A stretch of DNA of 51,525 bases, counting the filler, from Jimgerdemannia flammicorona (taxonomy: Eukaryota): assembly GCA_003990765.1 (NCBI GenBank). It is 2 parts of 2 records of this genome, joined end to end, with 100 filler letters (N's around TTAATTAATTAA, not from the genome) between each part and the next. Parts side by side here need not be neighbours in the genome. Positions count along the whole stretch, not along the records: positions 25,819 to 51,525 come from RBNJ01000801.1; 1 more part is not named here. The stretch is one strand, 5' to 3'. The translations under genes were made by a program, and so were the position numbers. Under the pieces are notes generated by a model. It did no database searches. It was given only the letters and a program-made list of their open reading frames with translations, and was not told the origin of the DNA. Positions 10,686-51,525 of the stretch are shown here, in pieces; within the stretch, counting starts at the first letter, position 1, and every line of letters begins with the position of its first letter.

Positions 10686-10705
10686 TTTGGGGGCTCAACT
10701 GAGAA
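10686..10705 (+). promoter_or_regulatory. Primer-binding site, tRNA-Pro-like
   Basis: TGGGGGCTCAACTGAGAA follows the LTR and resembles the known tRNA-Pro PBS TGGGGGCTCGTCCGGGAT. A near-identical PBS occurs at 51228. Confidence 0.75.
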
Positions 10706-14820: not shown

Positions 14821-15249
14821 GAAGGAAGTACATCTCCTTCAAGTCAACCACCTCAAGAGGAATGTTTCCCAGCAAGTGTACCAGCAATCAGTCAGACTGC
14901 ACAAGAATCTTATCCTGGAGCCTGGAGAACAAACTATCTTCGAAATCTTTGCACCACCCGACCCCAGAAATCTTTTCTTTGAACCTAAGGAAGATATCCC
15001 ACACCTGGACATAGAGGGACATACATTTCCTGACAAGATGAATCCAGTACACTTCCAAGCAACCAACCAAAGTTGAAAAACCATCATCTTGCCAAAAGAA
15101 ATCATCATAGGACACCTGGTATCTTTTCTCAACTGAACTTATAGGGAAGTTTATGAACTAAACCTATTGGGAAATGGCAAAAGATCTCAGAAGAAAGGAA
15201 AGGCCCCTCTGTGACCCAGGAGACAGTGAAGCCTTCCACCAACATTGGA

Positions 15250-17716: not shown

Positions 17717-18216
17717 ACAACTGCCTTCAAACTCTTGTCCTTAGCTCATTTCAATCACTACCAATTCCCCTTTCCCAATTCTAAGAAGTCAATGAGAACA
17801 CTCTCCAGAAGATCCAGATTCATCAAGAGAATCTTGTCCTGGCCAGATGATTGCTATAGGTCCACCAACTCTAGGCCCATTATGCAATTGGAGAACAATT
17901 GCAGAACCTCCCAGTCTCAGAATAAATATACATCCAAAGCACCACAGGACTATCAAGAAGAGATGTCACTGCTGTAGACAGGCTCTATACTCTTTACAAA
18001 CATAACCCTGCAGCCTTATTACAAGCACAATTCTCCTAGTGAGATATATATAGAATGAACTTGGCCACCTACCTGAGTATCATCAATACTATCAAAATCC
18101 TATTTCCAGAAGAAGAAGAAGAACCCTTAGAATGGAGCAACCATGGTACAGATGATGAAGATGATGGAACAGATATTGATGTAGAAGATGCTTACCCACA
18201 CTGGAATGATGACTAA
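17701..18216 (+). pseudogene. Element A accessory ORF3 homolog (env position)
   Basis: One frame with several stops: HYAIGEQLQNL...GLSRRDVTAVDRLYTLYKHNPAAL, ending in an acidic tail. The start ATA sits in a TATCATA context, matching the TATCATG start of 27108. Confidence 0.7.
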
Positions 18217-18256
18217 AGAACAGTCTGAGGACAGATCATCCTTTAGTAGGAGCTGA

Positions 18257-25718: not shown

Positions 25719-25818
25719 NNNNNNNNNNNNNNNNNNNNNNNNNNNNNNNNNNNNNNNNNNNNTTAATTAATTAANNNNNNNNNNNNNNNNNNNNNNNNNN
25801 NNNNNNNNNNNNNNNNNN
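25719..25818. other. Artificial contig linker (N44-TTAATTAATTAA-N44)
   Basis: Symmetric N padding around a six-frame stop spacer at 25763-25774. Confidence 0.95.
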
Positions 25819-25925
25819 TTACAAGCCTATGATGTAACCATCGTACACCACCCTGGAAGAACAAATTCCAATGCAGATGCTCTCTCACGGACACCTCGAA
25901 CTACCTCCAACCAACAAATCAATCA

Positions 25926-27118
25926 TGAATAAGGAGCTCTACTACGGAATCATCACATACCTGGGACAGTGAAAGATGCCCCAACATCTGGAAGAATGGA
26001 CACAAACGATTATCAACAGGACATGGAAACAATTCGAAACCGACGGAGAAACACTGAAGAAAGGAAAGCTACTAGTCATACTAGAACACAAGAAGGAGCA
26101 AGCAATGAAATCAATACATGAACTTGGCCATCTAGGAGGAACAAATACATATGACAAGGCAAGGAGAACAATATGGTGGCCAGGAATGGAGGAAGATATC
26201 AGACAATTCATCAAGACCTGTGACAAATGCCAGAAACAGAAACAAGACCAACGAAATCAAGCCCCAGGATCAGCACACATAGAACCAGTACCATTCACCC
26301 ACATTGCAATAGATGTAATTGGCCCCCTACCCTTGACTTTGACTGGCAACCGATACATCATTGTCATCGTAGACCTTTTTACGAAATGGATAGAAGCAGG
26401 ACCCCTTATGGAAGCCAATGCACAGTCAATTGCCGATTTCTTCCACAAGGAAATCATCTGCCAGTTCAAGACCCCAACACAAGTAACTACAGATAGAGGA
26501 ACCGAATTCGTGAACCAGTTCTTCGAGGTTCTCTACAAGAAGTACAAGATCCAGCACATTCGGACCACAGCCTATCACCCTCAAGGAAATGGACAAGTAG
26601 AAAGGACCAACAAGACCCTCAAGAATGTTATCGCCAAGATCTGTGATAACTATGAGAACTGGGATCACTATCTACCAATAGCACTATCTGCTCTCCAGGA
26701 TATCTGATCACAAAGCACCCACTTTACCCCTTGAGAAATGCTGTTTGGAGAAGAATGTTCTCAAGGAACCCTATCATCCAATGGAGATGCTGTATGGAAA
26801 CATGTAGATATGGAAATACGGAGACTACACCAAATCAGGAAGAAGGCTGAGGATTACATAACCAAGGCACAGACACTACAATGGAGGAATACGGAAAAAA
26901 CCCACAAGCCCCTGGAGATTATCAAGATAGGAGACAAAGTCCTAGTTTATTGGAATATGGTAGAAGCTTCATGGTCATGAAAACTAGAGCCCAAGTAGGA
27001 AGGACCTTACCTTGTGCAAGATATAAAAGGGACCACCTTTTGGCTACGGAAACCCTCAGGCACAATAATCCCCACCACCATTCACCGAAACCGACTCAAG
27101 AAATATCATGGTCAGTAA
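25926..27118 (+). pseudogene. Element B integrase (few stops)
   Basis: HELGHLG...CDKC (HHCC), IAIDVIGP, TTDRGTEF, GQVERTN and a *EGPY C-terminal module. Confidence 0.93.
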
Positions 27119-27569
27119 CAAAAGTACTGCGATGGCACTCAAGATCACTAGTGCTGCCCAAAGGGCCATCGAAAGACAATGGCACACCACTGAGCCCCCG
27201 ACCATAGAGCCATTCTATGAGGATATTCAGAGTATTGTGCAGACTCATCTCTCTCAGATCTCACACTTTAGAGCCTATCAATATCATGCAGAATTTCAAG
27301 AGTACTTCAAGCTTGGACAGGTGCTCAATCAGGATCCAGCAAAGACCAAGGAGGACTGGATTGCTGAGTGTCAACTCTCCCACTCACAGATTACTATCGC
27401 CAAAAGGATCCACAAGTTATTCCGAGAAGATGAACTAGCCATAGACCACCTGAGAGGAGTAATCCCTACCGACTTTGAGAAAGTGAGGAGACATCATTGG
27501 GAAACAGTCATGCAGCAAATTGCACAGTACAAGACCATACAGACGGTTGAAGCCTGGGAGTTTGAATAG
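27108..27569 (+). CDS. Element B accessory ORF3, intact, 153 aa, unknown function
   Basis: Open frame overlapping the integrase stop and ending before the PPT; core EYFKLGQVL...LSHSQITIAKRIHKLF. Confidence 0.8.
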   Translation: MVSNKSTAMALKITSAAQRAIERQWHTTEPPTIEPFYEDIQSIVQTHLSQISHFRAYQYHAEFQEYFKLGQVLNQDPAKTKEDWIAECQLSHSQITIAKRIHKLFREDELAIDHLRGVIPTDFEKVRRHHWETVMQQIAQYKTIQTVEAWEFE

Positions 27570-27606
27570 ATGCCTCAGGGACGAGACCATCCATTCAGGA
27601 GGAAGT

Positions 27607-28019
27607 TGTGACAGTACAGCCGTATTTGGAAGAAGGAAATAGGGAATAGACACTTGATCGCACCCATTCCTAAAGTAGTATAGCCTTATAGTTAGCAGTC
27701 GTCGATTTCGACATTGTCTAAATTCTTAGACATTATCCGAATGTTTCGACAAAGTCCAAATGACTCATTTATTACTTAGCCACCCTCTCATAGCTAGCAA
27801 AACTTGTATAAATAACCCAGTATCTTCGAGTGAATAACCTCAGATCGAAATAGTTCAAAGCAAAGAGATAGCAAAGGAACTAGTAAGCCTGCGGGCAGAT
27901 ACTTCAAACTCACCCACCCTCCCCTGCCGCTTCAAGAGACTCTGCGAAAGTCAGAACAGTCAAGTTTCAAGATACAGAAATCTGACGTACTTTCAAGAGT
28001 AAGCATCCACTACGTTACA
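27607..28019 (+). repeat. Element B 3' LTR (413 bp)
   Basis: TGTGACA...GTTACA after the PPT, with TATAAAT at 27807. The partner LTR is not in the window. Confidence 0.8.
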
Positions 28020-33908: not shown

Positions 33909-34012
33909 ATAGAAGAAAAAGATGACATCTCATTCTTTCACCAGTAACATTCAGGTGACACAAGACTCGGATAATACTTTTACTACATTTTTGGTGTCCA
34001 ATAACTATCGAC

Positions 34013-35919: not shown

Positions 35920-35950
35920 GCTGGGGTCTCTAATGTAACATTCTTTCAAT

Positions 35951-38900
35951 ATGAACTGTACAACTAGGTTATTCTCTTTGAACATAAATAGGTTACAGGG
36001 GGCAGCTAGGAGGAAGTATATATTTGGATGGCTTAAGGGACTGGATGCAGACCTCTTCTTATTACAGGATGTTTGTTATGAGGTAGATGTAGATTTACAG
36101 GATTGGACTAAGGAATGGGGGGGGGCAGCAGTATGGAGGGGGAAAGTGGGTATTCTCATTTGGAAAGGGATGGGGGATATTGGGGACATTGGACACTGGG
36201 GGTCTTAGGTGGTGTGGGGAGTGTGGAAGAGACCTGGATGGGACTCATTGACAGTTGGATCTTGTTACTGCTCAGCTGAGAGAGGGGAGAGAGTGGATTG
36301 GATTTGCAGATTGAAAGAGACCAGTGTCTTGGGAGAGGTTGGGTTGGACTGTATGGGGGGTGATTTCAACATAGTATGGGATAAGGCAATGGATAGAACA
36401 GATGGAGGGAGAGGCATGTAGAGCAAAAGTAGTGGATTGAGTGACTGGTTAGAGACAGAGAGATTGAGTTCTTTAGTGGACTAAGGAAGACAGTTTTGGG
36501 ACAATTGGAGGGTGTACACCCACTGGGCGGTAGGGCTGGGCTCCAGGATTGCCTGGGTTTTGACAGTGAAGTGTTGGGGAGCCAATGTCTGGATGGTGCT
36601 GGAGGTAGTTTGGTGTATGTGGTCTGATCACTGGGGGCTGCTTGGAGGGGGGAGGTTTGGGGGTAGTGAGGATGGGCCTGGACATTGGTGGCTAAATTCT
36701 TCCTTGTTGGAGGATAGGGCTTTGTGGGAGAGTTGGGAGACAGAGGTTGTCGAGAATATTGGAAGGTAGTGGGAATGGGGCCTGGGGATTGGGGACTGCT
36801 GGAGGAGACTGAAGGCAAATGATCAGGGGTATTGGAGGGAAGCAGGTAAAGGATGGTGTGCCCAGCAATGGCAGAGGGTGCTATGGGCCTCACAGTGTCT
36901 GGCGGCACTTATAGAGAGTTGGGCTAGTGCTCTAGAAGATGGGGAGGTGACTGATTGGTATATGTGAGAATTCAAAAGGAGGTGGAGGAGCTTAAAGGAG
37001 TGTTACTAAGAGAGGAGGAGGTGAGGATGCAGGGGATGGTGGCCTGACTGAGGTGGCAGAGGCTTGAGGAGGGTGAGAGGTCTACTAGGTTTTTGACATG
37101 GTTGTTACAAGCATGCTGAATGAAGCAGTGGTGGGAGGGAGTTCTGGATACAAATGGCAAGCTGGTGGTGGGGACTCTGGAGATTCTGGGTTTGCTGAGA
37201 ACCCATTGGGAGAATCTATGGAGTTAGGAGGAAGGAGGAGTGGATGCTTCAGACATTGAAAGACAGCTGGGGGATTGGCATCCAAACTCTGTGATAGGCC
37301 TTGGGGCTTTGGGGGACCCAGTGAGTGGAGAGAAAATTTGCAAGATTGTGGCCTCGACGAGTAAGGGGATGGGAGAATGGGCTTCCCTGGGATTTTTGGA
37401 AGATGGCTGGGGTGGGCAAGGTGCTAGAGGAAATGATCACTATGTGGGATGAGGTTCTTTGGTCTGGTGCTTGGATTGGGGGCCAGTGCCTAGGGCTAGT
37501 CTCCTTACTCTACAAGAATAAGGGGAGGTGGGAAGATTGGAAGAACTGGTAGCTGATCATGCTACTCAATATGGACCGCAAACTGGTGACAAAGATCTTG
37601 GTGATGAGACTGCAAGGAATCACTCAGCAGGTGCTTAGTGTGGAGCAGCATGGGTTTGTTGGTGGCCAGTTGATTAGCAATGGGACAGCTTGGGTATATG
37701 GAGTGATTGAAGGTGCCTGGGCTACAGGGGTAGATGGCCATTTGATATTTCTGGATCAAGAGAAGGCTTACGATAGAGTGCAGAGGATCTGGCTAGTGGG
37801 AGTACTGAAATGGATTAGTATCCCCCCGATGTTCTGAGGATCATTGATTGGCCTCTTGGAGGACAGTCAGGTGGCATTGGTCATCAATGACCACAGGGGA
37901 GTAACCTTTCCCTTGGGGCGTGGGGTACTGTAAGGGGACCCCTTGTCACTCATATTGTATGCCCTCTCCTTGGAGCCCCTACTGGACAGGATTCAGCATA
38001 AGATTGGGGGTTTGGACATTTTGGGGATTAATTGGAAGGTGGGGGCCTTTGCTGATGATATGGTGGTTGGGCTGGGCTCCTTGATAGATGTGGGGGAGTT
38101 GCAGAGGTCTGTGAAATGGTATGAGAGGGGATCTGGTGCTAAACTAAACTGGCACAAATGCAAGACTCTGGTGCTGGGTGCTGGAATTGTTGGTGGCAAT
38201 GTAATTGGAATGGTGGTACTGGCTGGTGAACCAGTGCATTATTTGGGGATCTACTTCTTAGTGTTCTGATCTCTTCTTCCCTGTGTATGGTGGAACCAAC
38301 AACTTCTAGAGTGGGGAAATGTTCTGCTATGATGGGGTGGTCAGCATTTGTCCCTAGCCAGCAGAGTGATGGTGCTGAATGTGTATTGGATGCCAAAGCT
38401 GTTGTATGTGAGATATCATTTGGATTTCCCATCTTGGGTGGTCTGGGGGCTGTTGAAGATGGCGAGGTTGTAGATCTGGGGAGGGCAGCAAAGCCAGGTG
38501 GGTTGGGAGGTGCTCACACTGTCCGTGGAAAGAGGTGGGCTGGGTTTGGTTGACTTTACTAAGCAGCTTCACTGCTTGAGAGCTTGGTGGTTGAGGAGAG
38601 TGAGTGAGCTAAGGGGCCAGGAGTGGGTGCCACTCATGCAGAGGGTGTGGGAGGTTCAGAATTCCCCTTGTGGTGACTCTGGTGACCTGCTTGCGATGGT
38701 GGTCATGGATGGGAGCAGGAGGATGCTGTTTATGGGCTTCTGGTGGGGGGTGGTGGATGGTACTAAGAAAATTGGACTTCAGTGGCGAGGTGATGAAGCT
38801 GAGGAGGATTGGGGACCACAGATGTAGCAGTGGGACAGGCTTCTACTGGGTGGTGTTCTGGTGGAGGATTTTCAGCTTAGAGAGAATATGGAGTGTTTGC

Positions 38901-39537
38901 AGAGCTTGGGTAGAGACCTGTGGCCCGAAGCTTGGCAGAGGGTTGGAATTAGTAAGAAGTGGGATTGGAATGGACTGTGGCTTTGGAGCAAGCAGGTGAG
39001 ACAGTGGCTGCCCCCCAAGTTCTGGGTGGTGTGGTGGTGAATCCTATAGTGGAATGTGATATTGAACTATCAGTCTGGGCACTTGGTAGACAGTGGAGTA
39101 TTCGAGTGTGAGGAATGTTTCAATGTTGGTCAGGAGGAAGGAGTGGTACAAACGTCTGAACATTGGCTTGGCAAGTGCAAGGTCTTGGAGGAGTTTTGGA
39201 GATATATCATGGACCAGTTAGGGCTGTGTGCCTTGGAGGGAGGGGAAGGGGGGAGATGGGGAGAGCTCCACCAGAGACTGGGGGGTGGGGTTGGAGAAGA
39301 ATGGCTGACCCTTGGTTGGGCTCTGGCCATGTAAGTTGGGTTGGTGGGGCATTGGATTCATGTATTTGAGGAGGGATAGTGGGTTGAGGTTGGGGACAAG
39401 GTGGCATATTGGGAATGGCTTTTGTTGGACATTTTGAATAGCTGGTAGTGAGGGTGGGGGCTAGGAGGGGGGAATTGTAGGGGTTTGATATAGTGTATCT
39501 CCTGGAAGAGTGGTGGGAGGATTCAGGTAGTGGGTGA
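35951..39537 (+). pseudogene. LINE-b ORF2 (APE endonuclease, RT, C-terminal CCHC)
   Basis: FSLNIN..LQD, GGDFN, SDH, FLDQEKAYDRV, GDPLS, FADD, YLGI, GGLGL and CEEC...H...C. Confidence 0.92.
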
Positions 39538-41051
39538 TTGGGTTGTGTTCAGGTAGTGGGAGGTTGAGGAGAGAGGGTTGGGTCCATGGGGCATTGGTTG
39601 AGGATTTGGGGTGTCATTATATTGTTAGATTTATAGATGGCAGTAATAAAGGACAGTCTAAGGAACTATAAAAAAAAATAAAAAAAAAATAAAAAAAAGA
39701 TAGAAGATAAAGGTACTATTTTAATAGAAGAGTTGTCAGTATTTGCAGATAATAAGTTTCTAGTATTGAGATATTTTAATAATATCTATATTATAGTAGT
39801 AGTTAACCATATCTTCCAGGAGGCAGCTAATTTAGTAGTAGCTTGAGATTTGTCTGATTCAGTAGATCTCATAAAGTATGTTTAGGATATTTTAATGAAC
39901 TTTTATGAAATAGAGGAGTGTCAGACTATAGATATTTATGAGAAACAGAGGAGCTATGGCTCAGTTGACAATGGTATTTCAAATGTTGGTACAGATGTTA
40001 TTATAGTCTTAGATAGTGATATCTGAGTAAGAGTTTGAGAGTTGTGATGGTGGTTTTCATTTATTATGATTTTTTGTTTTAATATACCATATATTCGGTA
40101 TATATGCTTTTAGTGCTAATTAGTAAGATTCCATTTTTATATATCATGTATTTTGTAACTTTAAGTTGACTTGTCTTTTTAATCTGTGACTTTGGTTTAA
40201 CTAAGCTTCATAATCTTATATGTAATTTCTAGATTTGTTCTAAGAGTGATATATATGTAATTTCAGTAGCTTAGAGATTGTGTGCATATATATATAAAGT
40301 ATGGTGAAATATAATATATATAAGAAAAAAATAGTTCAGTAAAATACTATTATTGATAGTAGCATTAAGAAGCTAAGATAAGTGATAAATCTGATATTAT
40401 CTTGAAGACTTCTTTTTTATAATAGAACTAAGTAGCAATGTCTGAAAATTTACAAAAAAAGGATAAAAAAAGGGGTCAGTAACTCTACTAGTTACAACTT
40501 TAGCAGAGATATCACTGATGATAGTCTGAGAAAACTTATAGACAAAGTGAAGCCTATAGTAAGTCTGAGAGCATCAGAGACCAATATAGCCAATCTAGAC
40601 CTCATGTTGTAGAGAACAGAGAACAGTTACTAGGAGATATGGGTTGAGAAACTTACAGAAAGCAAAGACCCAGACATTAGTATAGAGCAGAAAATATAAT
40701 GGAGAGAAGATTTTCAAATATTCTAAATAGATGAGTATGAGCCAGAAAGTAGAAAGAATAAGGAGATATTAGACAGTTAAGAAGGAAGAGGGATAGAGAA
40801 GAAAACTATTATAACAGTGACCTCAAAATGATGACATCAGTGCAGGAGATAGTCTTTCCTCTCAAGCCACCAGATCAGAGCACAAGAAGATCATATGGTA
40901 TATGAGATGAGTAATGATGACCAACTGTGAGTCATTGTGACCACAGTATAAGCATTCTGAAGAATATAAAAGAAAGATCAAGGAATCACAGTAGCAGCAA
41001 CCAATAAGAACCACCAATCCCAAAATAGCTCAAAGACTTATTACAAATGAA

Positions 41052-41840
41052 ATGTCTACTGCCTGCCAAACCTCAAGGTCAAGGAATCACCAAGATATCT
41101 CAGTTGAGGAAAGGATGTTCCAAGACATCTGAAGAGCTATGAGGACCCACTCAAGAAGGACTCCTAGTGTTAACCTGGGTACTGCAGATCTCTATCACTT
41201 TATCCTCTATTACTATGAAATGGAAACAAGGATCACTATTGCTACTGAATATCTCCAAATGTGGCAGGAGTACGAAATAGGAAACCTCCTCTGCTGGGAG
41301 TTCTCATAGGCCAGCCCTCAAGAGCTACAAGATGCCACTCCCATGGATATACATGAGATAAGAACAGCTAAGAAGATCCATCAGATCTTCAGGCATACAC
41401 TATGGTCAATCCCTAACTTGGAGTATATTAGAGTCTCAGACTTCAGAGACCTGTCATCCTACCATATCAATGTGCTAGAAGCCAGAGTGGCTACAGAAGC
41501 CCAGTCCACTATCACCCTCAATAGTGATGAAGTAGAAGACTTCTGGCATCCCATCCTTCAGGACAACCCAGACCAATTCCTGCAAGGATTGATCTCAGTA
41601 TTCCAAGGCCCAAGCATCCAGATTAGACCTCCCCAAGACCCCACATTTGTTCCTTATTTTGTGGAAGAGAACCTCATAGATTGGAGAGCCCCTGATTTCC
41701 CCACTAAATGTGATGATATTATTGGCGATGATGTCATCCCACATGATATCAAAGCATGTGAAAACAATGAATTTGCAGATCTCATCACCTTCAGTGATGA
41801 TGATGATGAAGCCCCCATGATCCTGAACTTTCTGCTCTAA
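41052..41840 (+). pseudogene. ORF3 copy inside the element C 5' LTR (2 stops)
   Basis: Same 789-nt frame as 46352-47140, with stops at 41130 and 41307. Confidence 0.85.
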
Positions 41841-41850
41841 GTTCTTTGTT

Positions 41851-41980
41851 ATACTGAATAATGCCAGCACTGATATTTTGATGTAACACTGGATAATGCC
41901 AGTACTGGCATTCTGAGGTGATGCAAAATTGTTCCAACACTGGTATTCTGATGTGACACTGAATTATACCAGCATCCTGA
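41851..41980 (+). repeat. ~3.5 x 35-bp tandem repeat in LTR C (also 47151-47280)
   Basis: A(T/C)ACTG(A/G)ATAATGCCAG.ACTG..ATT.TGA.GT. units. Confidence 0.75.
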
Positions 41981-42639
41981 ACCTGTCCAACAATCAGTGC
42001 CGACCCTAGAACTTAGTAGTTTTAGTTATTGAAATTTATATTTAGCTTTATATCTTAGCAACCATTAAATTATATTTTATATAAATACCTCTCTTATTTC
42101 CTCTGAAATAAAGTCAGTTCTATCTGGTTCACTTACATACTTCCTTGCAAGCAATCTAAGAAATAACAAGACAGTTTAAAGATAAGAAGTTTGAGGACTA
42201 TAAGACCTTAGAAAGGCACTCCAATAAGAACTTGCTTATAACAAACTTGAGTTAGTCTAAGAGATACACCTTGAAGAGAATCTGGCATATTTGAAGGACT
42301 CAGCAACCACTATGTGACAACTTGGTGCCCATTGGCTGGTGATTCAAGACAAATCCCTCACTTTCAAGCTGAAAAACGAACAACCCCCACAACAACTACC
42401 CTGACTACAAGAGTCACCCCTGCAAGAATTCAAGACAAGATGGAAATGTGTCCCCCCACATTCTATGGATATACTACCAAAGAGTCAATCCTGACCTTCA
42501 TTGAAGACTTTGAACAATTCACCACCATATGAGCCCTTGGTGTAGATGCTCAATTAGTCCTTCTACCAGTCAGTCTTAGAGGACCTGCCAGAGACAAAGG
42601 CTGACAGTGACAATGAGGAGGAACAAGAATCAGACATCA

Positions 42640-43055
42640 CCCCCAAGGTCAAGAAGTTTCACACCAAAGCCAAGATCTCAGAATACAAGACTGAAGGAGC
42701 CATAGGAATGGACCTTGCCAGTATTCAAGATACTACCCTCAAACCACAGACCACCACTCTACTTGGTACTGGAATTGGATTCAAGCTGCCAGAGAACCAT
42801 GCCAGAATTATCAAGACCAGGAGCAGTCTGGCCAAAAGTAAAATCTCAGTTGAAGGACGAGTAATTGACCCTAATTATACTGGCGAGATCTTCCTTATAG
42901 TCAGGAATCACAACCCCACCACCCTATTTGAAGTCAAGAAGCATTACAGGATTGGTCAGATGCTGATCTATGAAATCAAGAAGCCCAAGATCATGGAAGC
43001 CATTGAACTCATCAAGACCAAGAGAGGAGAACAAGGCTTTGGATCTACTGGAAGA
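42640..43055 (+). pseudogene. dut: Element C dUTPase
   Basis: AIGMDL, RSSLA, VIDPNYTGEI, RIGQML and RGEQGFGSTG. Confidence 0.93.
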
Positions 43056-43199
43056 GGAGCCTATACTGCCACCAAGATCACCAAACTTGAGCACAAGAAA
43101 GACAAGGACCAGAACAAGCACACATATACTATTGGAGAAAACTTTCCCCTAGAGGAACAACTTCTCAAGATCTTGTATCAGAATGAAGGAGTACTTGCT

Positions 43200-45780
43200 A
43201 TAGACTTCTGAGATATCCACAATCAAGAACCCAAGTACTACTATGAAGTTGACACTGGTGATATCAAGCCCATCTACCAGAAAGCCAGATCCATACCATC
43301 TGCCTATAGAGAATGGCTGTAAGCAGAACTCAAGGAAATGGAAGAAGCTGGAATCATCAAGGAAGCTATCAGCCCGTGGGCCTCACCTATTATTCTTGCC
43401 CCAAAGAAAGGAAGCAAGCCTGGAGAGTTTGCACCAACACTCTGCATTGACTACAGGAAGCTCAATGCCATCATCAAGAAGGATAGGCAGCCCTTGCCAA
43501 ATTTTCAAGAAATCCTTACCACTCTTGGAAGCAAAGCCAAATACTACACCACCTTGGATCTGTTCTCAGGCTTCCATCAGATTGGTCTCACTCAAGATGC
43601 CAGTGAGAAATCAGCCTTCATCACACCTGACACCACATATATCTATCTGCAAATACCATTTGAAATGTACAATGCCCTAGCAAGTTTCCAGTGAATGATG
43701 AACAGAGTCTTTAGCAACAAGATTGGAAAATGGCCTTTGTCTATGTTGATGATGTAATCATCTTCAGCAACACTGCACAGGAACATATCAATTACATACA
43801 GCTAGCCCTCAAGAAGCTCAAAGAGCATGGCCTCTCATCAAGCCTAAGAAATACAAGTTTGCAGCCCTGGAAATCGCCTACCTAGGACACCTCATCAACC
43901 AGACTGGAATCCACACAGACCCCATGAAGATTGAGGCTGTTGCAGCCTACCCAAGACCCAGAAAAACCACAGAAGTCCATGCCTTCCTTGGACTGGCCAG
44001 CTACAACAGAAGGTTCATCAAAGGATACTCCAATATTGCAGCACCCATCTATGAGCTACTGAAGAAGGAAACCAAATTTGAATGGATCAAGAAGTACCAA
44101 GAAACCTTCAATGAACTCAAGACCAGGTTGACCCAAGTACCTATCCTCAGAAGGCCAGATTGGAACCTAGAATTCATCCTGCAGACAGATGCAAGTGCTA
44201 TAGAACTTGGAGCAGTCCTAGCTCCAAAGAAAGATGGACATGAATATATCATCTCCTATGAAAGCCAAGGTACCTATGGAGCAGAACAGAACTATAAGTC
44301 ATGCAAGCTCAAATGCTTAGTAGTAGTCTGGGCAGTAGACAAGTTCCACTACTATCTAGCCAGGAAACACTTCACCATTCAAACAGACCACTCTGCTCTT
44401 GCCTGGCTATTCCACACTCTGAACCCCAAAGGAATATATGCCCTATGGATCTACAGATTATAAGAGTATAACTCTACTATCAAGCACCACTTAGGAAAGA
44501 CCAATACCAATTCAAGAACACCCCAAAACACCCCTATCAAGACTATTCAACATGAATAAGGAGCTATACTATAGATTAATCAGCTACCTTGGGCAGCAGA
44601 AGATGCCCAACCACCTCGAACTTGGACAATCACCATCATTAACTGAACTTGGAAACAGTTTGAATTAGACAACACTACACTCAGAAAAGGAGGAAAGCTA
44701 GTAATACCTGAATATAAGAAGTATTAAGTAATGAAGGAAGTATACAAGCAAGGACACTTAGGAGGAACCAATACATATGACAAAGCAAGAAGAACTATGT
44801 GGTGGCCCAAGATGGAAGAAGACCTGCACCAATTTGTCAAAGAGTATGATAAGTGCCAAAAACAGAAATAAGATCAGTAAGACCAGGCACCTGGGTCATC
44901 AAGAATTGAGTCTATCCCCTTCCACCACATTGCAATGGATATCATTGGGCCACTACCAGTAACAATATCAGAAAACCACTATATTATAGTTATTGTAGAC
45001 CTCTTTACCAAATGGATAGAGGCAGGAGTATTACAAGAAGCCAATGCCCTCTCTATAGCTGACTTCCTGCACCAAGAAATCATTTGCCACTACAAGACCC
45101 TGAAGCAAATCACAACAGACCATGGCATGGAATTTGTCAATGGATTCTACGAGATAATGTATCAGAAATACAAAATCCAGCACATCAAGACCACCACATA
45201 CCACCCTCAAGGAAATAGACAGATAGAGAGAACCAACAAGACTCTCAAGAACATCCTAGCAAAGATCTCAGAAATATATGTGAATTGGGATAACTATCTC
45301 CCAACTGCCCTCGCTGTCCTATGAGATATATGGTCACAGAGCACACACTTTACCCCAAGAGAGCTGCTCTTCATAGAAGAAGATTCTGATGAAACCTCAG
45401 CCACAAATCTAGACCTAACCTGGAGATGGGTTGATGCAGAAATCCAGAGACTACACCCAATCAGGAAGAAGGCTGATGATTACATCACTAAGTCACAAGT
45501 GCTGATAAGGAAGAATGTGGAAAAGAATCACAAGGCCCTAGAACCCATCCGAATTGGAGAAAGGTTCTACTTTATCGAAATATGGTAGAAGTCTCATGGT
45601 CATAAAAACTGGAGCCCAATTGAGAAGGACCCTTCTACATGCAAGATATCAAGGAAATCATCTTCTGGCTTAGAAAAATCTCAGAGACTATACTGCCCAC
45701 TACGGTACATAGGAATAGACTTAAGAAGTACTACAAACCTATACAAGAGAAGCAAAACATGATAACTCCCATGAGGTTCT
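43200..45780 (+). pseudogene. pol: Element C RT-RNase H-integrase
   Basis: SPWASP, IDYRKLN, YVDD (43742), LQTDAS, MDIIGP, TTDHGMEF and QIERTN. The integrase is closely similar to that of element B. Confidence 0.95.
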
Positions 45781-46109
45781 AGTCTGCAAATCATAACAGC
45801 ATGTCCCATGACCAGTAGGTTATCTGTCTGGACTATTCTCTAAGGGATACAGCACTGACAACTACTCATTCATGAGACTTTGGAAGTCAGAGGAATTTGA
45901 ACCATCAACTGATTGGTCAAGATCAGAATCAGGCCCTTACTCTATATGAAGAGAGTGACCCTTCACCATCATGCCAAAATACAAAGAGAAGATTCCAGTT
46001 CATAAACACCACTTTTCAACTCCTTACCAGAGGTTATGGGATCAGCAAATTTTTCAGGACTGGATCAATGAATAAGGATGCTCAAGAAGATCCTTATTCA
46101 GGAGGAAGA

Positions 46110-47618
46110 TGTAACAGTGATCTCAGAATGATGACATCAGTACAGGAGACAGCCTTTTCTCACAAGCCACCAGATCAGAGAACAAGGAGATCATACTGCA
46201 TATGAGATGAGCAATGATGACCAACAGTGAGTCATTGTGACCACAGTACAAGCATCCTGAAGAATATAAAAGAAAGATCAAGGAACTGCAGTACTAGCAA
46301 CCAATAAGAACCACCAATCCCAAAATAGCTCAAAGACTTACTACAAATAAAATGCCTGCTGTCCACCAAACCTCAAGGTCAAGAAATCACCAAGGCATCT
46401 CAGTTGAGGAAAGGATATTCCAAGACATCAGAAGAGCTATGAAGACCCACTCAAGAAAGACTCCTAGTGTCAACCTGGGTACTGCAGATCTCTATTACTT
46501 TATCCTCTACCACTGTGAAATGGAAACAAGGATCACCATTGCTACCAAATGCCTCCAAATATGGCAGGAGTATGAAATAGGAAACCTCCTCTGCCAGGAG
46601 TTCCCACAGGCCAGCCCTCAAGAGCTACAAGATGCCACTCCCATAGATATATGCAAGATAAGAACAGCTAAGAAGATCCATCAGATCTTCAGACATGCAC
46701 CATGGTCAATCCCCAACTTGGAGTATATTAGAGTTTCAGACTTCAGAGACCTATCATCCCACCATATCAATGCACTAGAAGCCAGGGTGGCTACAGAAGC
46801 CCAGTCCACTATCACCCTCAATAGTGATGAAGTAGAAGACTTCTGGCATCCCATCCTTCAGGACAACTCAGACCAATTTCTGCAAGAATTGATCTCAGTA
46901 TTCCAAGGCCCAAGCATCCAGGTTAGACCTCTCCAAGACCCCACATTTGTTCCTTATTTTGTGGAAGAGAACCTCATAGATTGGAGAGCCCCCAATTTCC
47001 CTGCCAAATGTGATGATGTCATCAGTGATAACATCATTCCACATGATATCGAAGTATGTGAAAATGATGAATTCGAGGATCTCATCTCCTTCAGTAATGA
47101 TGATGATGAAGCTCCCATGATTCTGAACTTTCTGCTTTAAGTTCTTTGTTATACTGAATAATGCCAGTACCAGTATTTTGATGTAATACTGAATAATGCC
47201 AGCACTGGCATTCTGAGATGATACAAAATTGTTCCAGCACCAGTATTCTGATGTGAAACTAAATTATACCAGCATCCTGAACCTGTACAACCATCAGTGC
47301 CAACCCTGGAACTTAGTAGTTTTAGTTATTAGAATTTATATTTAGCTTTATATCTTAGCAACTATTAAATTATATTTTGTATAAATACCCCTCTTATTTC
47401 CTCTGAAATAAAGTTAGTTCTACTGGTTTACTTATACACTTCCTTGTAAGCAATCTAAGAGATAACAAGACAGTTTAAAGATAAGAATTTTGAGGACTAT
47501 AAGACCTTGGGAAGGCACTCCAATAAGAACTTGCTTATAACAAACTTGAGTTAGTCTAAGAGATATACCTTGAAGAGAATCTAGTATATTTGAAGAACTC
47601 AGCGACCACTACATAACA
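46110..47618 (+). repeat. Element C 3' LTR (1509 bp)
   Basis: TGTAACA...ATAACA, followed by CTAT. Confidence 0.95.
46352..47140 (+). CDS. ORF3 inside the element C 3' LTR, intact, 262 aa, unknown function
   Basis: Open ATG-to-stop frame upstream of the LTR TATA box (47380); core WQEYEIGNLL...IRTAKKIHQIF and an acidic C-terminus. Confidence 0.82.
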   Translation: MPAVHQTSRSRNHQGISVEERIFQDIRRAMKTHSRKTPSVNLGTADLYYFILYHCEMETRITIATKCLQIWQEYEIGNLLCQEFPQASPQELQDATPIDICKIRTAKKIHQIFRHAPWSIPNLEYIRVSDFRDLSSHHINALEARVATEAQSTITLNSDEVEDFWHPILQDNSDQFLQELISVFQGPSIQVRPLQDPTFVPYFVEENLIDWRAPNFPAKCDDVISDNIIPHDIEVCENDEFEDLISFSNDDDEAPMILNFLL

Positions 47619-48971
47619 CTATATATAAAACTGAAGAAGAAATAATCAACCCCTCTGCTGAATCCTATAAAGAATAAGTAAAAGCCCTATAGTCTTAAGA
47701 ACAATATGAGAAATAATATACAAAATAACAAGAATTATATATATAATCTTTAATAGTCTAATCAATAGCTCTATTATAAGTGATATAATAATATACTCTG
47801 CAGACATTCTTTAGTAGTAGAGATGATATGGTAGGAGGCCAAGAGCATTCTATCAGTTGGATGAGTTTAGTAAAGAGTGAGACATATTAATAAAGAAGAG
47901 AAAAAAGATATAGCGATATGAGCTCTCTTTAATATATAGCTCAGACTATATAATCAGATTAAGAGAGAGAAGTAGTAATATAATATATATGAAATTTAAG
48001 ATAATAGTTAAGAAGTGCCTTCTATATATTGAAAGTTCAAATTTAATCAGATGAGATTATTTATATATTAGAAGAATGCAGAGAGATCAGTAAGATCTAG
48101 GAAGATATTATAGAGTATACTAAAGTATAGTTATAATAGTTATAGTAGTATTAGCAAATTAGGAAAATCTCTAACTATAGCTATCTCACAAGAATGTAAA
48201 ATATGCAATAATATAATAGGATCAATCTCTTCAATGAAATATAGATTGTGGGAAATGATGATGAAGAGGGATCAAAGGATCTATATACTTGCCCAAGTTA
48301 TATATATGAAAAGAATATAAAAGATCATAGGGATTCTAATAGGATTAATGTTCAAATACTTAGCAAGTAAACTGAAGTTATATATTATAGATAGAAAGCA
48401 AATATCTATCTGAAAGTATAGATACTTATAGAAATAAAGTCATTATTGTAAGTTATCTATTTGTCTATCATAGAGATAAAGTTATTGTCAGAAAGGTAAA
48501 CTGGTTGATATATATGTATTATAGAAGCCTGAAAAGGAGACCAAAGATATGGCTAACCAGTAGACAGAGACTAATCTCTGGTCAAAATAGAGTAAAGATC
48601 CTAAATTAGGTCTAGAGTTCAATATATACATAGATAATGTATTTAGATTATCTATTGAGTAGGGTTTATGGTATATAGAACTCTGAAAACAGTATTGTAA
48701 AGATAGCTATAGCTGAAACTAGTAGAAGTATAATATCTGAGTGGGTGGAGATAATGTAAATATATTGTGACATACACAATTGACAATGGAGTACTGGTGA
48801 CTGCTAAGGTCAGACGACATAATGGCGTGACAATCGAATAGACAGTCTGACCCATTAGGTGATCATCCCAAAGAAGACAAGATGATCTGAGCCAAAATGA
48901 AGACCACATTATTTAAGGAACCATACCCCATCTCAGGGATCGGCACCAAAGAACCAAGTACCCACTACACA

Positions 48972-49961
48972 ATGCCTCCCACTCGCCGAACCAACCAGAC
49001 CTCCCGCCGCTCTACCCCTCTGCCTGGCCCAAAGACCCTGATCTTTGAAGCTATCAAGAAGGCCATCTGGTGCCCAGATACTTCCGAACACTTGAACTTC
49101 TACACCGAGGACCTTGGATACTTCATCAACTACCGGTATATAATGACCCAACAGCTCAAAGATACTACTGAATGAATGACCCTCTGGCATGACTACGAAA
49201 TCGGACACTGCCTTCGCCAGGAGACTCAAGAAGACGACCGAGAAGACCTCATTACCGAAATGTTAACCACCAGCTGGCTAATCAAGAGAGCCCTCTGTGT
49301 CCACCAAATCTTCCACCATATTCCCTGGGCTATAGCACACTTACAAGGGGTGACTGCCAGCAGCCTCTCCTGCCTTTCAACTGAAGATGCTGACTGGATA
49401 GAATCTGAAGTAGCCAACTCTATTGGCAGCAACTGCGTTGCTGTAGGAAGTCAATAAACCGAACCTACTCAGCCAGGTTTCCACACCACCCCACTCTAAG
49501 ACAACCATCAAGGTCATCTAATGAGTCTTATGGAGATATTTGAAGGACCGCCCATTACCATAGAAGCACCCATTGGAGCTACCCCAACCACCCACCACCC
49601 TGTCAGCCACAATTCACATCTCATCATTTGGGAACCAAATCTAGAAGAAGCCCAAGAGGTCCCCATCTTTAAAGAGGAAGCCCAAGAACTCCAAGACCCC
49701 GCCCCTGAAGAAACCCCCTCTGATACTGAAACTAACGAGGCTCCAGAAGAAGAAGAGGAACAACAGAGAGTCTACCAGTCCTCTGTCTGCATTCAAGCTG
49801 TTCAAGGGTTGGAGAATGTTGTTGAAGATGACTGGTCACTTTTCTACCCCCTCACCTCTTGGCTGGCACTCCCCCCCTTTGAGGAGAGATATGATGAAGA
49901 AGAAATCGCAACCCAGCAAGATTTGCCCACCATGGACAAAGGGTACTACTATTCCCCCTAG
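48972..49961 (+). pseudogene. ORF3 homolog inside LTR D (329 codons, 3 in-frame stops)
   Basis: Aligns to 46352-47140: IFEAIKKA/IFQDIRRA, TEDLGYFINY/TADLYYFILY, WHDYEIG/WQEYEIG, VHQIFHHIPWAI/IHQIFRHAPWSI, IFEGPPI/VFQGPSI. Confidence 0.85.
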
Positions 49962-49999
49962 AAGTACCACCCGTCAGCCATGAGAATTGTGCAGCCTTC

Positions 50000-50262
50000 A
50001 TATCAGCAAGTCAGCAAGTCCGAATCCAGCATTGCTATCCAGTGCCACTGTTTTCAGCATTTTAGTCAGCAAGTCCATTTTCAGTGCTGCCACCCTCCAC
50101 AACCATTTCTGGCAACAATTATCATAGCAAGTCAGCAAGTCCGAATCCAGTGTTACCACCCACAACATCCATATCCAGCACTAGCACCCATCTTATCCAT
50201 ATTTGATGCAAACAATTGTCACACCCATTTTCAGCATTGCTATCCCCTACAACCCAATCCAT
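50000..50262 (+). repeat. Degenerate repeats (AGTCAGCAAGTCC, CATTTTCAG) in U3 of LTR D
   Basis: Three AGTCAGCAAGTCC copies plus related units. Confidence 0.65.
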
Positions 50263-50611
50263 AGTAAACAATAGCCTGCACCTCGCATCGTGCAAGCCAA
50301 TAGCATAACAGACGCTGCAACATAGTATACCTTAGCCTTAGTCGTTCCCCCCTCCCCCATAGCTAGCAAACTTGTATAAATAACCCATATTCTTAGAGTA
50401 AATAAACCTCAGTCAGTCAGCTTGTGTTTAAAAGTAAAAAGGATTACTAAGAAACCTCACTGCCTCTAAGAGACCAGATAAATTCTGAGAACAAGATAAC
50501 AACCTAGAGCAATGGATCGCTCAGAAGTTTGAGTTAAAGAATTTTCTCTTGCCATGGAAAGAAAACGTTCAAGATCCGCCACTAAGGAAAGCTGCACTAG
50601 ACTGCCGAAAA

Positions 50612-50790
50612 CCGACTGCTGCCATTCGAGACCCGGAAACCCAAGGATTCAAGACCAGAGCGCCATTCGGACCGCCATTCAGACCGCCATTCGAGACCCG
50701 AGACCCAGCCAAGGATTCAAGACTATGACCGCCACGCATTCGGACCGCGCATTCGACTGCCATTCGAGATTCAAGACCCAGAAAACCAAG
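50612..50790 (+). repeat. Short GACCGCCATTC / CCAAGGATTCAAGAC repeats downstream of the poly(A) signal in LTR D
   Basis: Multiple ~12-bp units read directly from the sequence. Confidence 0.7.
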
Positions 50791-51525
50791 GAACGACAAG
50801 GATACTAGACCACCAAAGACCGACCGTAGCCTAAGACCTGCCAAGATACCCAAACGACCGCCAGGAACCTTTCAAGTTAACTGAGATGGACGAGCAAGCT
50901 GTCAACCTATGTTTTCCCAACCTACTGTGCCACGAACTGTTTAAAGTCAAGACCATCGCCGAGTTTGTTGCCGAGTTTGCCACCAGGAAACTTAGCCAGC
51001 ATAATTGCCACCCTGATCCACTAAACAATTGAGCCATCGGCGTCCTGAGCCGTTGAACAACCGAACGACCTCCCCATTATTATTATCACACGAATCGAAC
51101 GACCTGTCATGTGACCAACGACCTGCGAAACATCACCAATGCCTTCAGTTATATACATTGTGTGTGTCATCTGTGACATATTGAGCCATACAGTCGAAGT
51201 TTTTTATACATAACCAACGCCACATTTTGGGGGCTCAACTGGGAAAGTTTTCAAAAGACTTGACCATTTGGCTCAAGAACCCAGTGATCTACAGTGGAGA
51301 ACTTAGCAGGACCAAGTCAGCAACCAAACCAGGGGCAGCAACAGCCCTCCTCAGCAGAAAAGAAAGCCCACACCCTTGTCAGAACAGTAGCCAGGACCCT
51401 ACTCAATACCAGTAGCCAGAAAACTGAATCAGAAGAAAGAAGTGACCCAGATTACGGTTTGACTTCAAGAGAAAGGAGACAACTCAGAGGGCAACCAGAA
51501 CCGCCCCTTCAGATCCAAGACTTAG

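What the first reader, a model, noticed from the sequence alone, without database searches (positions are those of the whole stretch)
46352..47140. A complete 262-aa gene embedded in the LTR U3 of element C and duplicated in both LTRs
Seen: the ORF lies wholly within the 1.51-kb direct repeat, downstream of the PPT/TG start (46110) and upstream of the TATA/AATAAA module (47380-47412). It is intact in the 3' LTR and has two stops in the 5' LTR, while pol is riddled with stops. Known: U3-encoded genes occur in retroviruses (MMTV sag, part of HIV nef) but are not a standard feature of fungal LTR retrotransposons. Inference: every solo LTR would deposit a copy of the gene, and it needs its own promoter in the first ~240 bp of U3 or a spliced RNA.
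Basis: partly seen in the sequence, partly recalled or inferred. Interest (0 to 1): 0.82.

Follow-up and report, generated by a model that had tools for sequence, protein, structure and literature searches.

The report
Accessory gene inside a retrotransposon's LTR
A decayed Ty3/gypsy-type retrotransposon carries a real, conserved 262-codon gene of unknown function inside each of its long terminal repeats, whereas a sister element keeps the same gene just outside the repeat.

Summary
Element C (40812-47618) has two 1.51-kb LTRs that are 91% identical, a CTAT target duplication, a PPT and a PBS. The 262-aa ORF (46352-47140) lies wholly in U3. It is intact in the 3' LTR and has two stops in the 5' LTR. 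None of 2000 shuffles of the LTR gives an ORF this long.

It is a real gene family, which I call ORFx. Metagenome proteins 62-85% identical share its start and stop. There is no Pfam or PDB relative.

A second, divergent LTR in the window (D, 48766-51224) has the same layout, and a metagenome contig (L002) is colinear with C.

In sister element B, whose integrase is 69% identical, and in contig L001, a shorter homologue lies outside the LTR. It overlaps the end of pol and sits upstream of the same PPT/LTR junction, followed by a 413-bp LTR (about 455 bp in L001). The homology has hhalign probability 92.7%. So the gene has changed sides of the PPT/U3 boundary at least once.

This resembles MMTV sag in layout only. 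Function and expression route are untested. I propose a nucleic-acid-binding regulator expressed from a U3-internal TATA-like box. This copy is dead and its open frame is compatible with chance (P about 0.22). The host is an unidentified AT-rich, CpG-depleted soil eukaryote.

The parts
40812..47618 (+). Element C, a degenerate Ty3/gypsy-type LTR retrotransposon with CTAT target duplications at 40808-40811 and 47619-47622
   Evidence: LTR pair. Flanks read. Pfam order dUTPase, RT, RNase H, integrase. Contig cover in 4 of 4 runs falls to about 0 outside these ends.
40812..42319 (+). 5' LTR (starts TA, mutated from TG; ends CA)
46112..47618 (+). 3' LTR (TG...CA), 1507 bp
46352..47140 (+). ORFx, 262 aa, intact copy in U3 of the 3' LTR
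   Evidence: Homologues. 0 of 2000 shuffles reach this length.
41052..41840 (+). ORFx copy in U3 of the 5' LTR, with stops at codons 27 and 86; 84% aa and 90.6% nt identical to the 3' copy
46102..46111 (+). Polypurine tract AGGAGGAAGA, abutting the 3' LTR start. The junction sequence is conserved in B, L001 and L002.
42322..42339 (+). Primer-binding-site-like sequence TTGGTGCCCATTGGCTGG, 2 nt after the 5' LTR. The same sequence follows the LTR of L001.
46265..46277 (+). TATA-like box TATAAAAGAAAGA, 87 nt upstream of the ORFx ATG. It also lies at 40965-40977 in the 5' LTR, and a near-identical box is in L002. Candidate U3-internal promoter (inferred).
47147..47274 (+). 35-bp tandem repeat (3.7 copies) between the ORFx stop and the LTR TATA box. 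It holds the 8-2-8 palindrome AATGCCAG NN CTGGCATT at 47195-47212. The 5' LTR equivalent is 41847-41974.
47380..47411 (+). LTR promoter and polyadenylation module (TATAAATA, about 20 nt, AATAA). The 5' LTR equivalent is near 42080-42111.
42439..42600 (+). Start of gag, followed by an internal deletion near 42597-42600 that removes most of gag and the protease in this copy
   Evidence: Sequence. Loose ends at 42597/42600 in runs X3 and X6. The intact relative L001 has CCHC and protease before dUTPase.
42708..45324 (+). Decayed pol: dUTPase 42708-43211, RT 43338-43694, RNase H 43924-44463, integrase core 44935-45324
48766..51224 (+). Element D 5' LTR (about 2.46 kb). It starts TGTGACA after AT-rich DNA, with a TATTTAAGG box at 48910-48918 and a TATA/AATAA module at 50375-50405. 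It ends CCACA, followed by a PBS and leader like that of element A.
   Evidence: The boundaries are read from one copy only.
48972..49778 (+). ORFx homologue of element D (about 30% aa identity to C, 3 internal stops), inside the D LTR, 206 nt from its start
   Evidence: tblastn E 2.5e-17. HMM E 5e-69. Translation.
27108..27569 (+). ORFx homologue of element B (short form, intact). Its ATG overlaps the pol stop (27116-27118). It lies upstream of the PPT, that is outside the LTR.
   Evidence: hhalign probability 92.7%, E 4.1e-7.
27597..28019 (+). Element B PPT (AGGAGGAAG, 27597-27605) and 413-bp 3' LTR (27607-28019). Both LTR termini resemble those of the C LTR.

Best explanation
SHOWN. Element C is a dead Ty3/gypsy-type LTR retrotransposon with a dUTPase domain. 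Its 1.5-kb LTRs are genuine, defined by a target duplication, PPT, PBS and TG..CA ends. Each contains a whole protein-coding gene, ORFx, in U3. The gene sits 240 nt after the LTR start and 240 nt before the LTR TATA/AATAA module. ORFx is a lineage-restricted accessory gene of this clade of elements, with a conserved start (MP..R..QTSR), a conserved stop (..LNFLL) and no known domain. In the sister subfamily (B in the window, L001 in a metagenome) a shorter homologue lies immediately 3' of pol, overlapping its stop codon. It sits upstream of the same conserved PPT/LTR junction and is followed by a short LTR (413 bp in B, about 455 bp in L001). In subfamilies C and D the gene lies downstream of that junction.

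INFERRED. On the genomic RNA, ORFx is the 3'-terminal gene in both layouts. The only change is on which side of the plus-strand primer and U3 start it lies. In C and D, reverse transcription therefore copies it into both LTRs, and any solo LTR would keep it.

PROPOSED, UNTESTED. A TATA-like box 87 nt upstream of the ATG, also present in L002 and with a counterpart 62 nt upstream in D, starts a short mRNA. That mRNA would end at the LTR's own AATAA signal, so each LTR would be a self-contained gene cassette. The protein has a helical core with weak helix-turn-helix-like resemblance. The C-type form adds an acidic C-terminal tail (14 D+E against 1 K+R in 47 residues). I propose that it is a nucleic-acid-binding regulator of the element, possibly a transcriptional activator acting on the palindrome-bearing 35-bp repeats between its stop codon and the LTR TATA box. 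My odds: about 0.85 for the structural reading, about 0.5 for the U3-internal promoter, about 0.25 for the activator function.
For: LTR structure. Searches give 91% identity over 1501 bases. Searches show the TSD, PPT, PBS and termini.

Family ends. In 4 of 4 public runs, summed contig depth goes from 4.6/0.43/1.8/3.0 in bin 40568-40851 to 809/70/103/32 in bin 40852-41135. It is 0 from 47668 onward in all runs, except 0.13 in one bin of X2.

Real gene. 0 of 2000 shuffles give an ORF of 262 aa or more. Five proteins among 137 candidates matched at E 4.5e-125 to 2.3e-34, at 64-83% identity by BLASTP and 62-85% in the alignment. The three that reach the C-terminus intact end in LNFLL, a fourth ends LNILL, and the fifth (P0005) diverges at its end. 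One has the same N-terminus. Five representatives among 1.84 billion proteins matched at E 0.001 or less, including two at 37-41% identity with the same MP..R start.

Same layout elsewhere. D has an HMM hit at E 5e-69, an LTR start after AT-rich DNA, and the TATA module and a PBS-like leader downstream. L002 is 84% identical to C 44392-46472, with PPT, LTR start and the ORFx ATG in the same order.

Different layout in the sister subfamily. The B and C integrases are 69% identical. The B ORFx lies at 27108-27569, with PPT and LTR start at 27597-27607. L001 has the same order with an intact 153-aa ORFx. Homology of the two forms: hhalign probability 92.7%, E 4.1e-7, over 115 columns. There are reciprocal tblastn and HMM hits inside the window.

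Promoter lead. Repeats and palindrome. Charge of the tail. Weak HTH-like fold rows (SopB, VirB, ParB, KorB, sigma region 4, DeoR) at Z 4.0-4.5.
Against: This copy shows no evidence of present function. Pol is riddled with stops, and gag and the protease are deleted. The 5' ORFx copy has two stops. The open 3' copy is expected by chance in 22% of simulations. dN/dS between the two LTR copies is 0.35, against a neutral simulation mean of 0.53 (5-95% range 0.34-0.78), and 5.4% of simulations are as low. That is not significant, and CpG context was not modelled.

The D LTR boundaries rest on one copy and on resemblance only. No 5' LTR of B was seen. L001 carries an ORFx end and a PPT in front of its 5' LTR, so it is a tandem pair or a chimeric assembly. 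It therefore does not by itself fix the B-type LTR start.

No transcript data exist for start sites or splicing.

The function is poorly supported. Both AF2 models are poor (mean pLDDT 51.8 and 60.8). Foldseek found nothing at E 0.001 or less. The best VIA Z is 4.9, below the tool's stated noise level for helical models. Pfam and PDB sequence searches were empty. Atlas hits are leads only.
Confidence: 0.75

Rival explanations
1. The long repeat is not the LTR. The true LTR is only the last 480 bp or so, and the ORF-bearing part is repeated because of a tandem, nested or recombinant arrangement of two elements.
For: The sister subfamily really has a short LTR (413 bp in B, about 455 bp in L001) with the gene outside it. 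The 35-bp repeats after the ORF contain TGTAACACTG and TGTGACACTG, which resemble the LTR 5' terminus TGTAACAGTG. L001 shows that element-LTR-element joins or chimeric assemblies occur.
Against: The 5' copy of the ORF is preceded by the same LTR start and then directly by AT-rich non-element DNA. It carries a 4-bp duplication that matches the 3' end, and no pol or PPT lies upstream. Contig cover in 4 of 4 runs stops at 40812. The conserved PPT/LTR junction lies upstream of the ORF in both C and L002. There is no purine tract before 47140.
Confidence: 0.03
2. ORFx is not an element gene of long standing. It is a piece of a host gene that was captured (transduced) into the LTR of one lineage.
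For: There is no Pfam or PDB relative, and very few database relatives, all from metagenomes without context. Capture of extra ORFs by LTR retrotransposons is described in the abstract of PMC5408684 (search listing).
Against: Homologues occur in three, and possibly four, divergent element subfamilies. They are always at the 3' end of the element, in the same orientation, and next to pol or the LTR start. No homologue longer than 459 aa was found among 570 candidates. All 5 representative hits in 1.84 billion proteins are of ORFx size, 138-342 aa. If it was a capture, it predates the split of these subfamilies.
Confidence: 0.1
3. Same structure but a different expression route. ORFx is translated from a spliced subgenomic RNA, or by re-initiation, driven by the 5' LTR promoter, as env-type third ORFs are. 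The copy in the 5' LTR and copies in solo LTRs would then be silent passengers.
For: In B and L001 the ORFx ATG overlaps the end of pol (11 nt in B). That suits coupled translation or a nearby splice acceptor, not an own promoter. On the genomic RNA, the C-type ORFx is still the 3'-terminal gene (inference).
Against: In C the ATG is about 610 nt beyond the pol stop, so coupling is unlikely. A TATA-like box is conserved 62-87 nt upstream of the ATG in C (both LTRs), L002 and D. Neither point is decisive.
Confidence: 0.35
4. The frame is a chance or non-coding feature, conserved only because LTR DNA is conserved.
For: This copy is not under detectable selection. Both structure models are of low confidence.
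Against: 0 of 2000 shuffles reach the length. The frame, start and stop are kept at 62-85% protein identity. The domain is recognisable at 22-41% identity in D, P0007-P0009 and the B type, where the DNA no longer aligns.
Confidence: 0.02

Closest known systems
MMTV sag, the 'LTR ORF' of mouse mammary tumour virus (a betaretrovirus)
   Same: A complete protein-coding frame lies in U3 of a long LTR of about 1.3-1.5 kb. It is downstream of the PPT and upstream of the LTR promoter, and so is present in both LTRs. The abstracts of PMC2118998 and others in the listing name the ORF of the 3' LTR. The rest is recalled. Betaretroviruses also carry a dUTPase (recalled).
   Different: There is no sequence relationship: Pfam returned no hit for ORFx. 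The host is not a vertebrate. No env is present. ORFx has no predicted membrane segment in the models, which are helical and acidic. Here a sister subfamily shows the same gene outside U3, which to my knowledge has not been described for sag (recalled).
Additional ORFs (aORFs) of LTR retrotransposons, e.g. in plant Ty3/gypsy and bdelloid rotifer elements
   Same: A lineage-specific extra gene of unknown function lies 3' of pol and evolves much faster than pol. Sources: abstracts of PMC7264820 and PMC5408684 in the listing; and a figure legend of PMC2864245 that mentions an 'add. ORF' in fungal elements, seen as a passage.
   Different: As far as I saw, the positions described are between the LTRs. 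A word search of PMC7264820 for 'in/inside/within the LTR', 'LTR region' and 'overlap' found 0 places. In PMC5408684 the one hit was irrelevant. In elements C and D the gene lies inside the LTR.
Accessory genes that overlap U3 in complex retroviruses (lentiviral nef, spumaviral bel/bet) and the spumaviral activator Tas
   Same: A 3'-terminal accessory gene shares sequence with U3. Tas is a DNA-binding activator with an acidic activation region that acts on its own LTR, which is the working model proposed here. All of this is recalled, not from a call.
   Different: Those genes only overlap U3, whereas here the whole gene is inside it. No homology was found. DNA binding and activation by ORFx are untested.
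Cassandra TRIM elements, which carry a 5S RNA gene in each LTR (recalled, not from a call)
   Same: A self-contained gene with its own promoter lies inside both LTRs of an LTR retrotransposon, so every LTR copy spreads it.
   Different: That is a pol III RNA gene in a non-autonomous element. Here it is a protein-coding gene in an element with gag-pol. Rfam found no RNA family in the window.

Membership tests
Ty3/gypsy (Metaviridae) LTR retrotransposon | Direct LTRs with TG..CA termini and a short target-site duplication | tested here: met
   The LTRs are 91% identical. The termini are TG (TA in the 5' copy) and CA, with a 4-bp CTAT duplication.
Ty3/gypsy (Metaviridae) LTR retrotransposon | Pol domain order protease, RT, RNase H, integrase | tested here: met
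   C has dUTPase, RVT_1, RT_RNaseH and rve in that order, with the protease deleted. The relative L001 has CCHC, aspartyl protease, dUTPase, RVT_1, RT_RNaseH and Integrase_H2C2.
Ty3/gypsy (Metaviridae) LTR retrotransposon | PBS next to the 5' LTR and PPT next to the 3' LTR | tested here: met
   Both were read. The same PBS and PPT junctions occur in L001 and L002. The priming tRNA was not identified.
LTR-retrotransposon additional ORF (aORF) | An ORF other than gag/pol that recurs in related elements at a fixed place | tested here: met
   It was found in C (twice), D, B, L001 and L002, always at the 3' end in sense orientation.
MMTV Sag family | Sequence homology to Sag | tested here: not met
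   Pfam scans of ORFx and of 17 family members gave no Sag family hit. The PDB profile search was empty.
MMTV Sag family | Whole ORF inside U3, between the PPT and the LTR promoter (layout only) | tested here: met
   The ORF spans LTR positions 241-1029 of 1507, and the TATA module lies at position 1269.
Helix-turn-helix DNA-binding regulators | HTH fold | tested here: inconclusive
   The AF2 model of P0010 has pLDDT of about 64-86 over residues 60-140. Foldseek gave no match at E 0.001 or less. VIA gave rows for SopB, VirB, ParB, KorB, sigma region 4 and DeoR at Z 4.0-4.5, below the tool's noise level for helical models. One of 17 members hit HTH_Tnp_Mu_2 at E 0.031.
Helix-turn-helix DNA-binding regulators | Sequence-specific binding to DNA | not testable with these tools
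   A candidate site exists, the 8-2-8 palindrome in the 35-bp repeats, but binding needs an experiment.

The most novel reading that the evidence does not exclude
ORFx is an element-encoded transcriptional activator with its own promoter and polyadenylation signal inside a single LTR. Every LTR of the C and D subfamilies, solo LTRs included, would then be an autonomous gene that can switch on all other LTRs of the family in trans through the palindromic U3 repeats. Moving the gene across the PPT would have turned a 3' accessory gene into a self-spreading regulatory cassette. That would be a natural intermediate for how retroviral U3 genes such as sag or nef arise.
Probability: 0.15. Interest if true: 0.8.

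Novelty: new variant of a known kind. Interest (0 to 1): 0.58.

Why it matters
Genes inside U3 are known from complex retroviruses. In my searches they are not described for LTR retrotransposons. Searches turned up only MMTV for 'LTR ORF'-type phrases among the listed papers whose abstracts bore on it. Three listed papers that use the phrase 'LTR ORF' (Talaromyces, Tasmanian devil, Heliconius) were not opened.

Here the same accessory gene is seen on both sides of the PPT/U3 boundary in sister subfamilies. That makes the step 'gene moves into the LTR' directly comparable. It would also mean that solo LTRs can leave behind whole genes, which is relevant to annotating orphan genes in repeat-rich genomes.

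The gene itself is a family without any known domain, and it appears to be abundant in soil sequence data.

Tried and rejected
No whole genome is held for the window, so copies and solo LTRs could not be counted. Earlier findings were not open.

RNA evidence. The look-up of sequencing runs listed 10 runs, with no RNA holder among them. Expression, start sites and splicing could therefore not be examined.

The read laying depths are sums over contigs and were not used as copy numbers.

Collection scans. A metagenome scan with the ORFx alignment matched 250 pattern stretches, 0 confirmed. A viral-contig scan matched 39, 0 confirmed. The scan with the integrase alignment gave 7 loci. Only L001 and L002 are close relatives. 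L003-L007 (35-43% identity) gave no ORFx hit better than E 1.6.

A search for longer, fused forms of ORFx found 0 among 570 candidates.

Structure and family searches. The model of the 262-aa protein was too poor to search with (pLDDT 51.8). Fold searches with the P0010 model gave nothing significant. Atlas rows (Translat_reg, HTH_3, DUF3102 and others, sharing 145 or fewer features) are leads only. Rfam found no family in the window.

Selection on the two LTR copies is not significant.

I looked for a remnant of a B-like ORFx between the C pol end and the PPT (45740-46101) and found none by tblastn. I looked by eye for a splice acceptor before the ATG and found nothing convincing.

The host was not identified. 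The window's composition (AT-rich background, CpG observed/expected 0.01-0.17 in most 5-kb blocks) does not name a taxon.
Full report
1. WHAT IS THERE

The 262-aa ORF at 46352-47140 (+) exists as described. It lies inside a direct repeat, 40812-42319 and 46112-47618, that is 91% identical over 1501 aligned bases.

The repeat behaves as a true LTR pair:
- It begins TG (TA in the 5' copy) and ends CA.
- The 3' copy is preceded directly by AGGAGGAAGA (46102-46111).
- The 5' copy is followed, after two bases, by TTGGTGCCCATTGGCTGG (42322-42339).
- CTAT flanks both outer ends.

Between the LTRs, Pfam finds dUTPase, RT, RNase H and integrase in that order. All are broken by stops. Only about 270 nt separate the gag ATG (42439) from the dUTPase domain. 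Contigs from other copies diverge at 42597/42600, and the intact relative L001 has about 1.6 kb more there, holding CCHC and the protease. So this copy has lost most of gag and the protease.

The LTR promoter and polyadenylation module (TATAAATA, about 20 nt, AATAA) is at 47380-47411. The ORF therefore sits wholly in U3, at LTR positions 241-1029 of 1507. The 5' LTR copy (41052-41840) has stops at codons 27 and 86.

2. IS IT MORE THAN CHANCE?

None of 2000 dinucleotide-preserving shuffles of the LTR gave an ATG ORF of 262 aa or more; the mean was 67 and the maximum 147. The frame was therefore a real coding frame in the ancestor of both LTRs.

That the 3' copy is still open says little. With 37 substitutions of the observed spectrum it stays open in 22% of 5000 simulations.

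The two LTRs differ mostly by transitions (125 of 138 differences), largely as TG/CA pairs. CpG observed/expected is 0.01-0.17 in most 5-kb blocks of the window. This points to decay of methylated CpG after insertion. dN/dS between the two copies is 0.35, against a neutral simulation mean of 0.53 (5-95% range 0.34-0.78). That is not significant, and CpG context was not modelled. This copy is dead.

3. A GENE FAMILY

The protein search returned 5 relatives among 137 candidates (E 4.5e-125 to 2.3e-34; 64-83% identity by BLASTP, 62-85% in the alignment). All come from short metagenome contigs. The three that reach the C-terminus intact end in LNFLL, a fourth ends LNILL, and the fifth (P0005) diverges at its end. 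One shares the N-terminus. No longer or fused form was found among 570 candidates.

The exhaustive profile search of 1.84 billion representatives found only 5 proteins at E 0.001 or less. Among them are P0007 and P0008 (37-41% identity, same MP..R start) and P0009 (27%).

Pfam, the PDB sequence search and Rfam gave nothing.

The family is abundant in soil data. In 4 of 4 runs, hundreds to thousands of short contigs lie on the element. Cover stops at the LTR ends: 4.6 against 809 in run X1 across 40812, and 0 beyond 47668 except for 0.13 in one bin of X2. One loose end in X3 at 41702, read by eye, encodes the ATAERDDVID variant seen in P0001 and keeps its CpGs. So younger copies exist.

4. THE SAME GENE ELSEWHERE IN THE WINDOW, IN TWO LAYOUTS

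A profile of the family finds four clear copies in the window. They are the two in C, one at 48972-49778 (element D, E 5e-69, about 30% identity, three stops), and one at 27294-33 within the ORF 27108-27569 (element B, E 7.5e-6).

Element D. AT-rich DNA gives way at 48766 to TGTGACA. The ATG follows 206 nt later. The TATA/AATAA module is at 50375-50405. The repeat ends CCACA at 51224. It is followed by a PBS and leader that resemble the sequence just after element A's 5' LTR. No pol lies upstream. D is thus a second, divergent 5' LTR with the gene in U3, but its boundaries rest on one copy.

Element B. Its integrase is 69% identical to that of C. The ORFx ATG (27108) overlaps the pol stop (27116-27118), and the ORF ends at 27569. 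Only then come ATTCAGGAGGAAGT and TGTGACAG (LTR start 27607). This is almost the same junction as in C. A 413-bp LTR follows, and its end (CCACTACGTTACA, to 28019) also matches the C LTR end.

Two metagenome contigs add independent copies:
- L002 is 84% identical to C 44392-46472. It shows pol end, PPT, LTR start and the ORFx ATG in the C order, with the frame open to the end of the contig.
- L001 is 79% identical to B, with near-intact gag-pol carrying CCHC, protease, dUTPase, RT, RNase H and integrase. It shows the B order, with an intact 153-aa ORFx overlapping the pol end. Its LTR of about 455 bp abuts the same PBS as in C.

The B-type family has 9 relatives among 12 candidates. It aligns to residues 14-150 of the C type with hhalign probability 92.7%, E 4.1e-7.

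A weak hit (E 0.017) lies between pol and the 3' LTR of the distant element A.

Conclusion: ORFx is an accessory gene of this clade, and it has changed sides of the PPT/U3 boundary at least once. The direction of the change is unknown.

It fails for C. The 5' ORF copy is preceded by the LTR start, a TSD and non-element DNA, and the conserved PPT/LTR junction lies upstream of the ORF in both C and L002.

The short-LTR state is real, but it belongs to the sister subfamily. The 35-bp repeats just after the C ORF contain words resembling the LTR 5' terminus. This could be a trace of an older LTR start, but it is too short to weigh.

One caveat: L001 carries an ORFx end and a PPT in front of its 5' LTR, so it is a tandem pair or a chimeric assembly.

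6. HOW IT LIKELY WORKS

On the genomic RNA, ORFx is the last gene in both layouts. In C and D it lies downstream of the plus-strand primer, so reverse transcription copies it into both LTRs. This is an inference from standard LTR replication.

Expression route:
- In B and L001 the overlap with pol suits coupled translation or a nearby acceptor.
- In C the ATG is about 610 nt past pol.
- A TATA-like box (TATAAAAGAAAGA) lies 87 nt upstream in both LTRs.
- A near-identical box is present in L002, and TATTTAAGG lies 62 nt upstream in D.
- The AATAA signal lies about 30 nt after the main TATA box. It would probably be absent from, or sit at the very 5' end of, genomic RNA started in the 5' LTR. An RNA started upstream of ORFx would carry it.

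Each LTR could therefore be a promoter-ORF-polyadenylation cassette. This is proposed, not shown.

Function:
- The models are helical and of low confidence.
- The better-modelled core gives only weak rows for HTH DNA-binding domains, at Z 4.0-4.5.
- The C-type tail is acidic, with 14 D+E against 1 K+R in 47 residues, and has conserved hydrophobic residues.
- Between the stop codon and the TATA box lie 3.7 copies of a 35-bp repeat with an 8-2-8 palindrome.

I commit to a nucleic-acid-binding regulator of the element, possibly an activator acting on these repeats, at about 0.25.

7. COMPARISON AND NOVELTY

In layout the closest case is the LTR ORF (sag) of MMTV. There is no homology.

Additional ORFs of LTR retrotransposons are well known, but in what I read they lie between the LTRs. 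What I read was: the abstracts of PMC7264820 and PMC5408684; word searches of both texts; passages of PMC2864245 on dUTPase and 'add. ORF'; and passages of PMC10787394, where the variable U3 is under 200 bp and no ORF is mentioned.

Phrase searches for an ORF in or within the LTR returned 36 papers. The 30 listed were dominated by MMTV. Three listed non-retroviral papers were not opened. Supplements were not consulted.

I rate this a new variant of a known kind: an aORF placed inside U3, with a sister lineage showing the other placement.

That the host is a fungus is not established by any search.

Noticed in passing
window 25885-28019: Element B is a 3' fragment of a related element that follows two runs of N (25719-25762 and 25775-25818). 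It has an intact integrase ORF, an intact short ORFx and a 413-bp LTR. It keeps many CpGs (observed/expected 0.46 in its 5-kb block), unlike its neighbours.
   Followed up: yes
window 9247-19682: Element A is a distant dUTPase-bearing Ty3/gypsy element (integrase 31% identical to B) with LTRs of about 1.43 kb (9247-10683 and 18257-19682). The TATA module lies only about 255 bp into the LTR, so R-U5 is about 1.1 kb. A weak ORFx-like hit lies at 17866-18021 (E 0.017), between pol and the 3' LTR.
   Followed up: partly
window 1-5000 and 34000-40000: There are blocks with extreme GC skew: about -0.5 on one side and +0.5 on the other. GC is about 0.5 and CpG observed/expected is 0.01-0.09. They hold RT fragments on opposite strands (1785-2093 minus, 37934-38266 plus). 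This looks like another decayed retroelement family in two orientations. The cause of the skew was not examined.
   Followed up: no
window 46895-47263 (-) and 41595-41963 (-): A 122-aa stop-to-stop antisense frame overlaps the 3' end of ORFx in both LTRs. It was not tested for homologues.
   Followed up: no
window 23240-23755 (-): An ORF matches Pfam DUF7869 (E 1.3e-13) in the AT-rich stretch between elements.
   Followed up: no
L001 1-130 and 6221-6351: The contig begins with an ORFx end and a PPT in front of its 5' LTR. That piece differs from the copy at its 3' end. Either two elements share one LTR in tandem, or the assembly is chimeric.
   Followed up: partly
window 50619-50781: Tandem repeats of 73 bp (2.4 copies) and 12 bp (3.1 copies), rich in CpG, lie in the presumed R-U5 of the D LTR. 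L001 has 21-bp repeats in its U3 (174-277).
   Followed up: no
window 42708-43211: The dUTPase domain lies between the protease and RT in this clade (C, A, L001). Passages of PMC2864245 report that placement for one Postia placenta family.
   Followed up: partly
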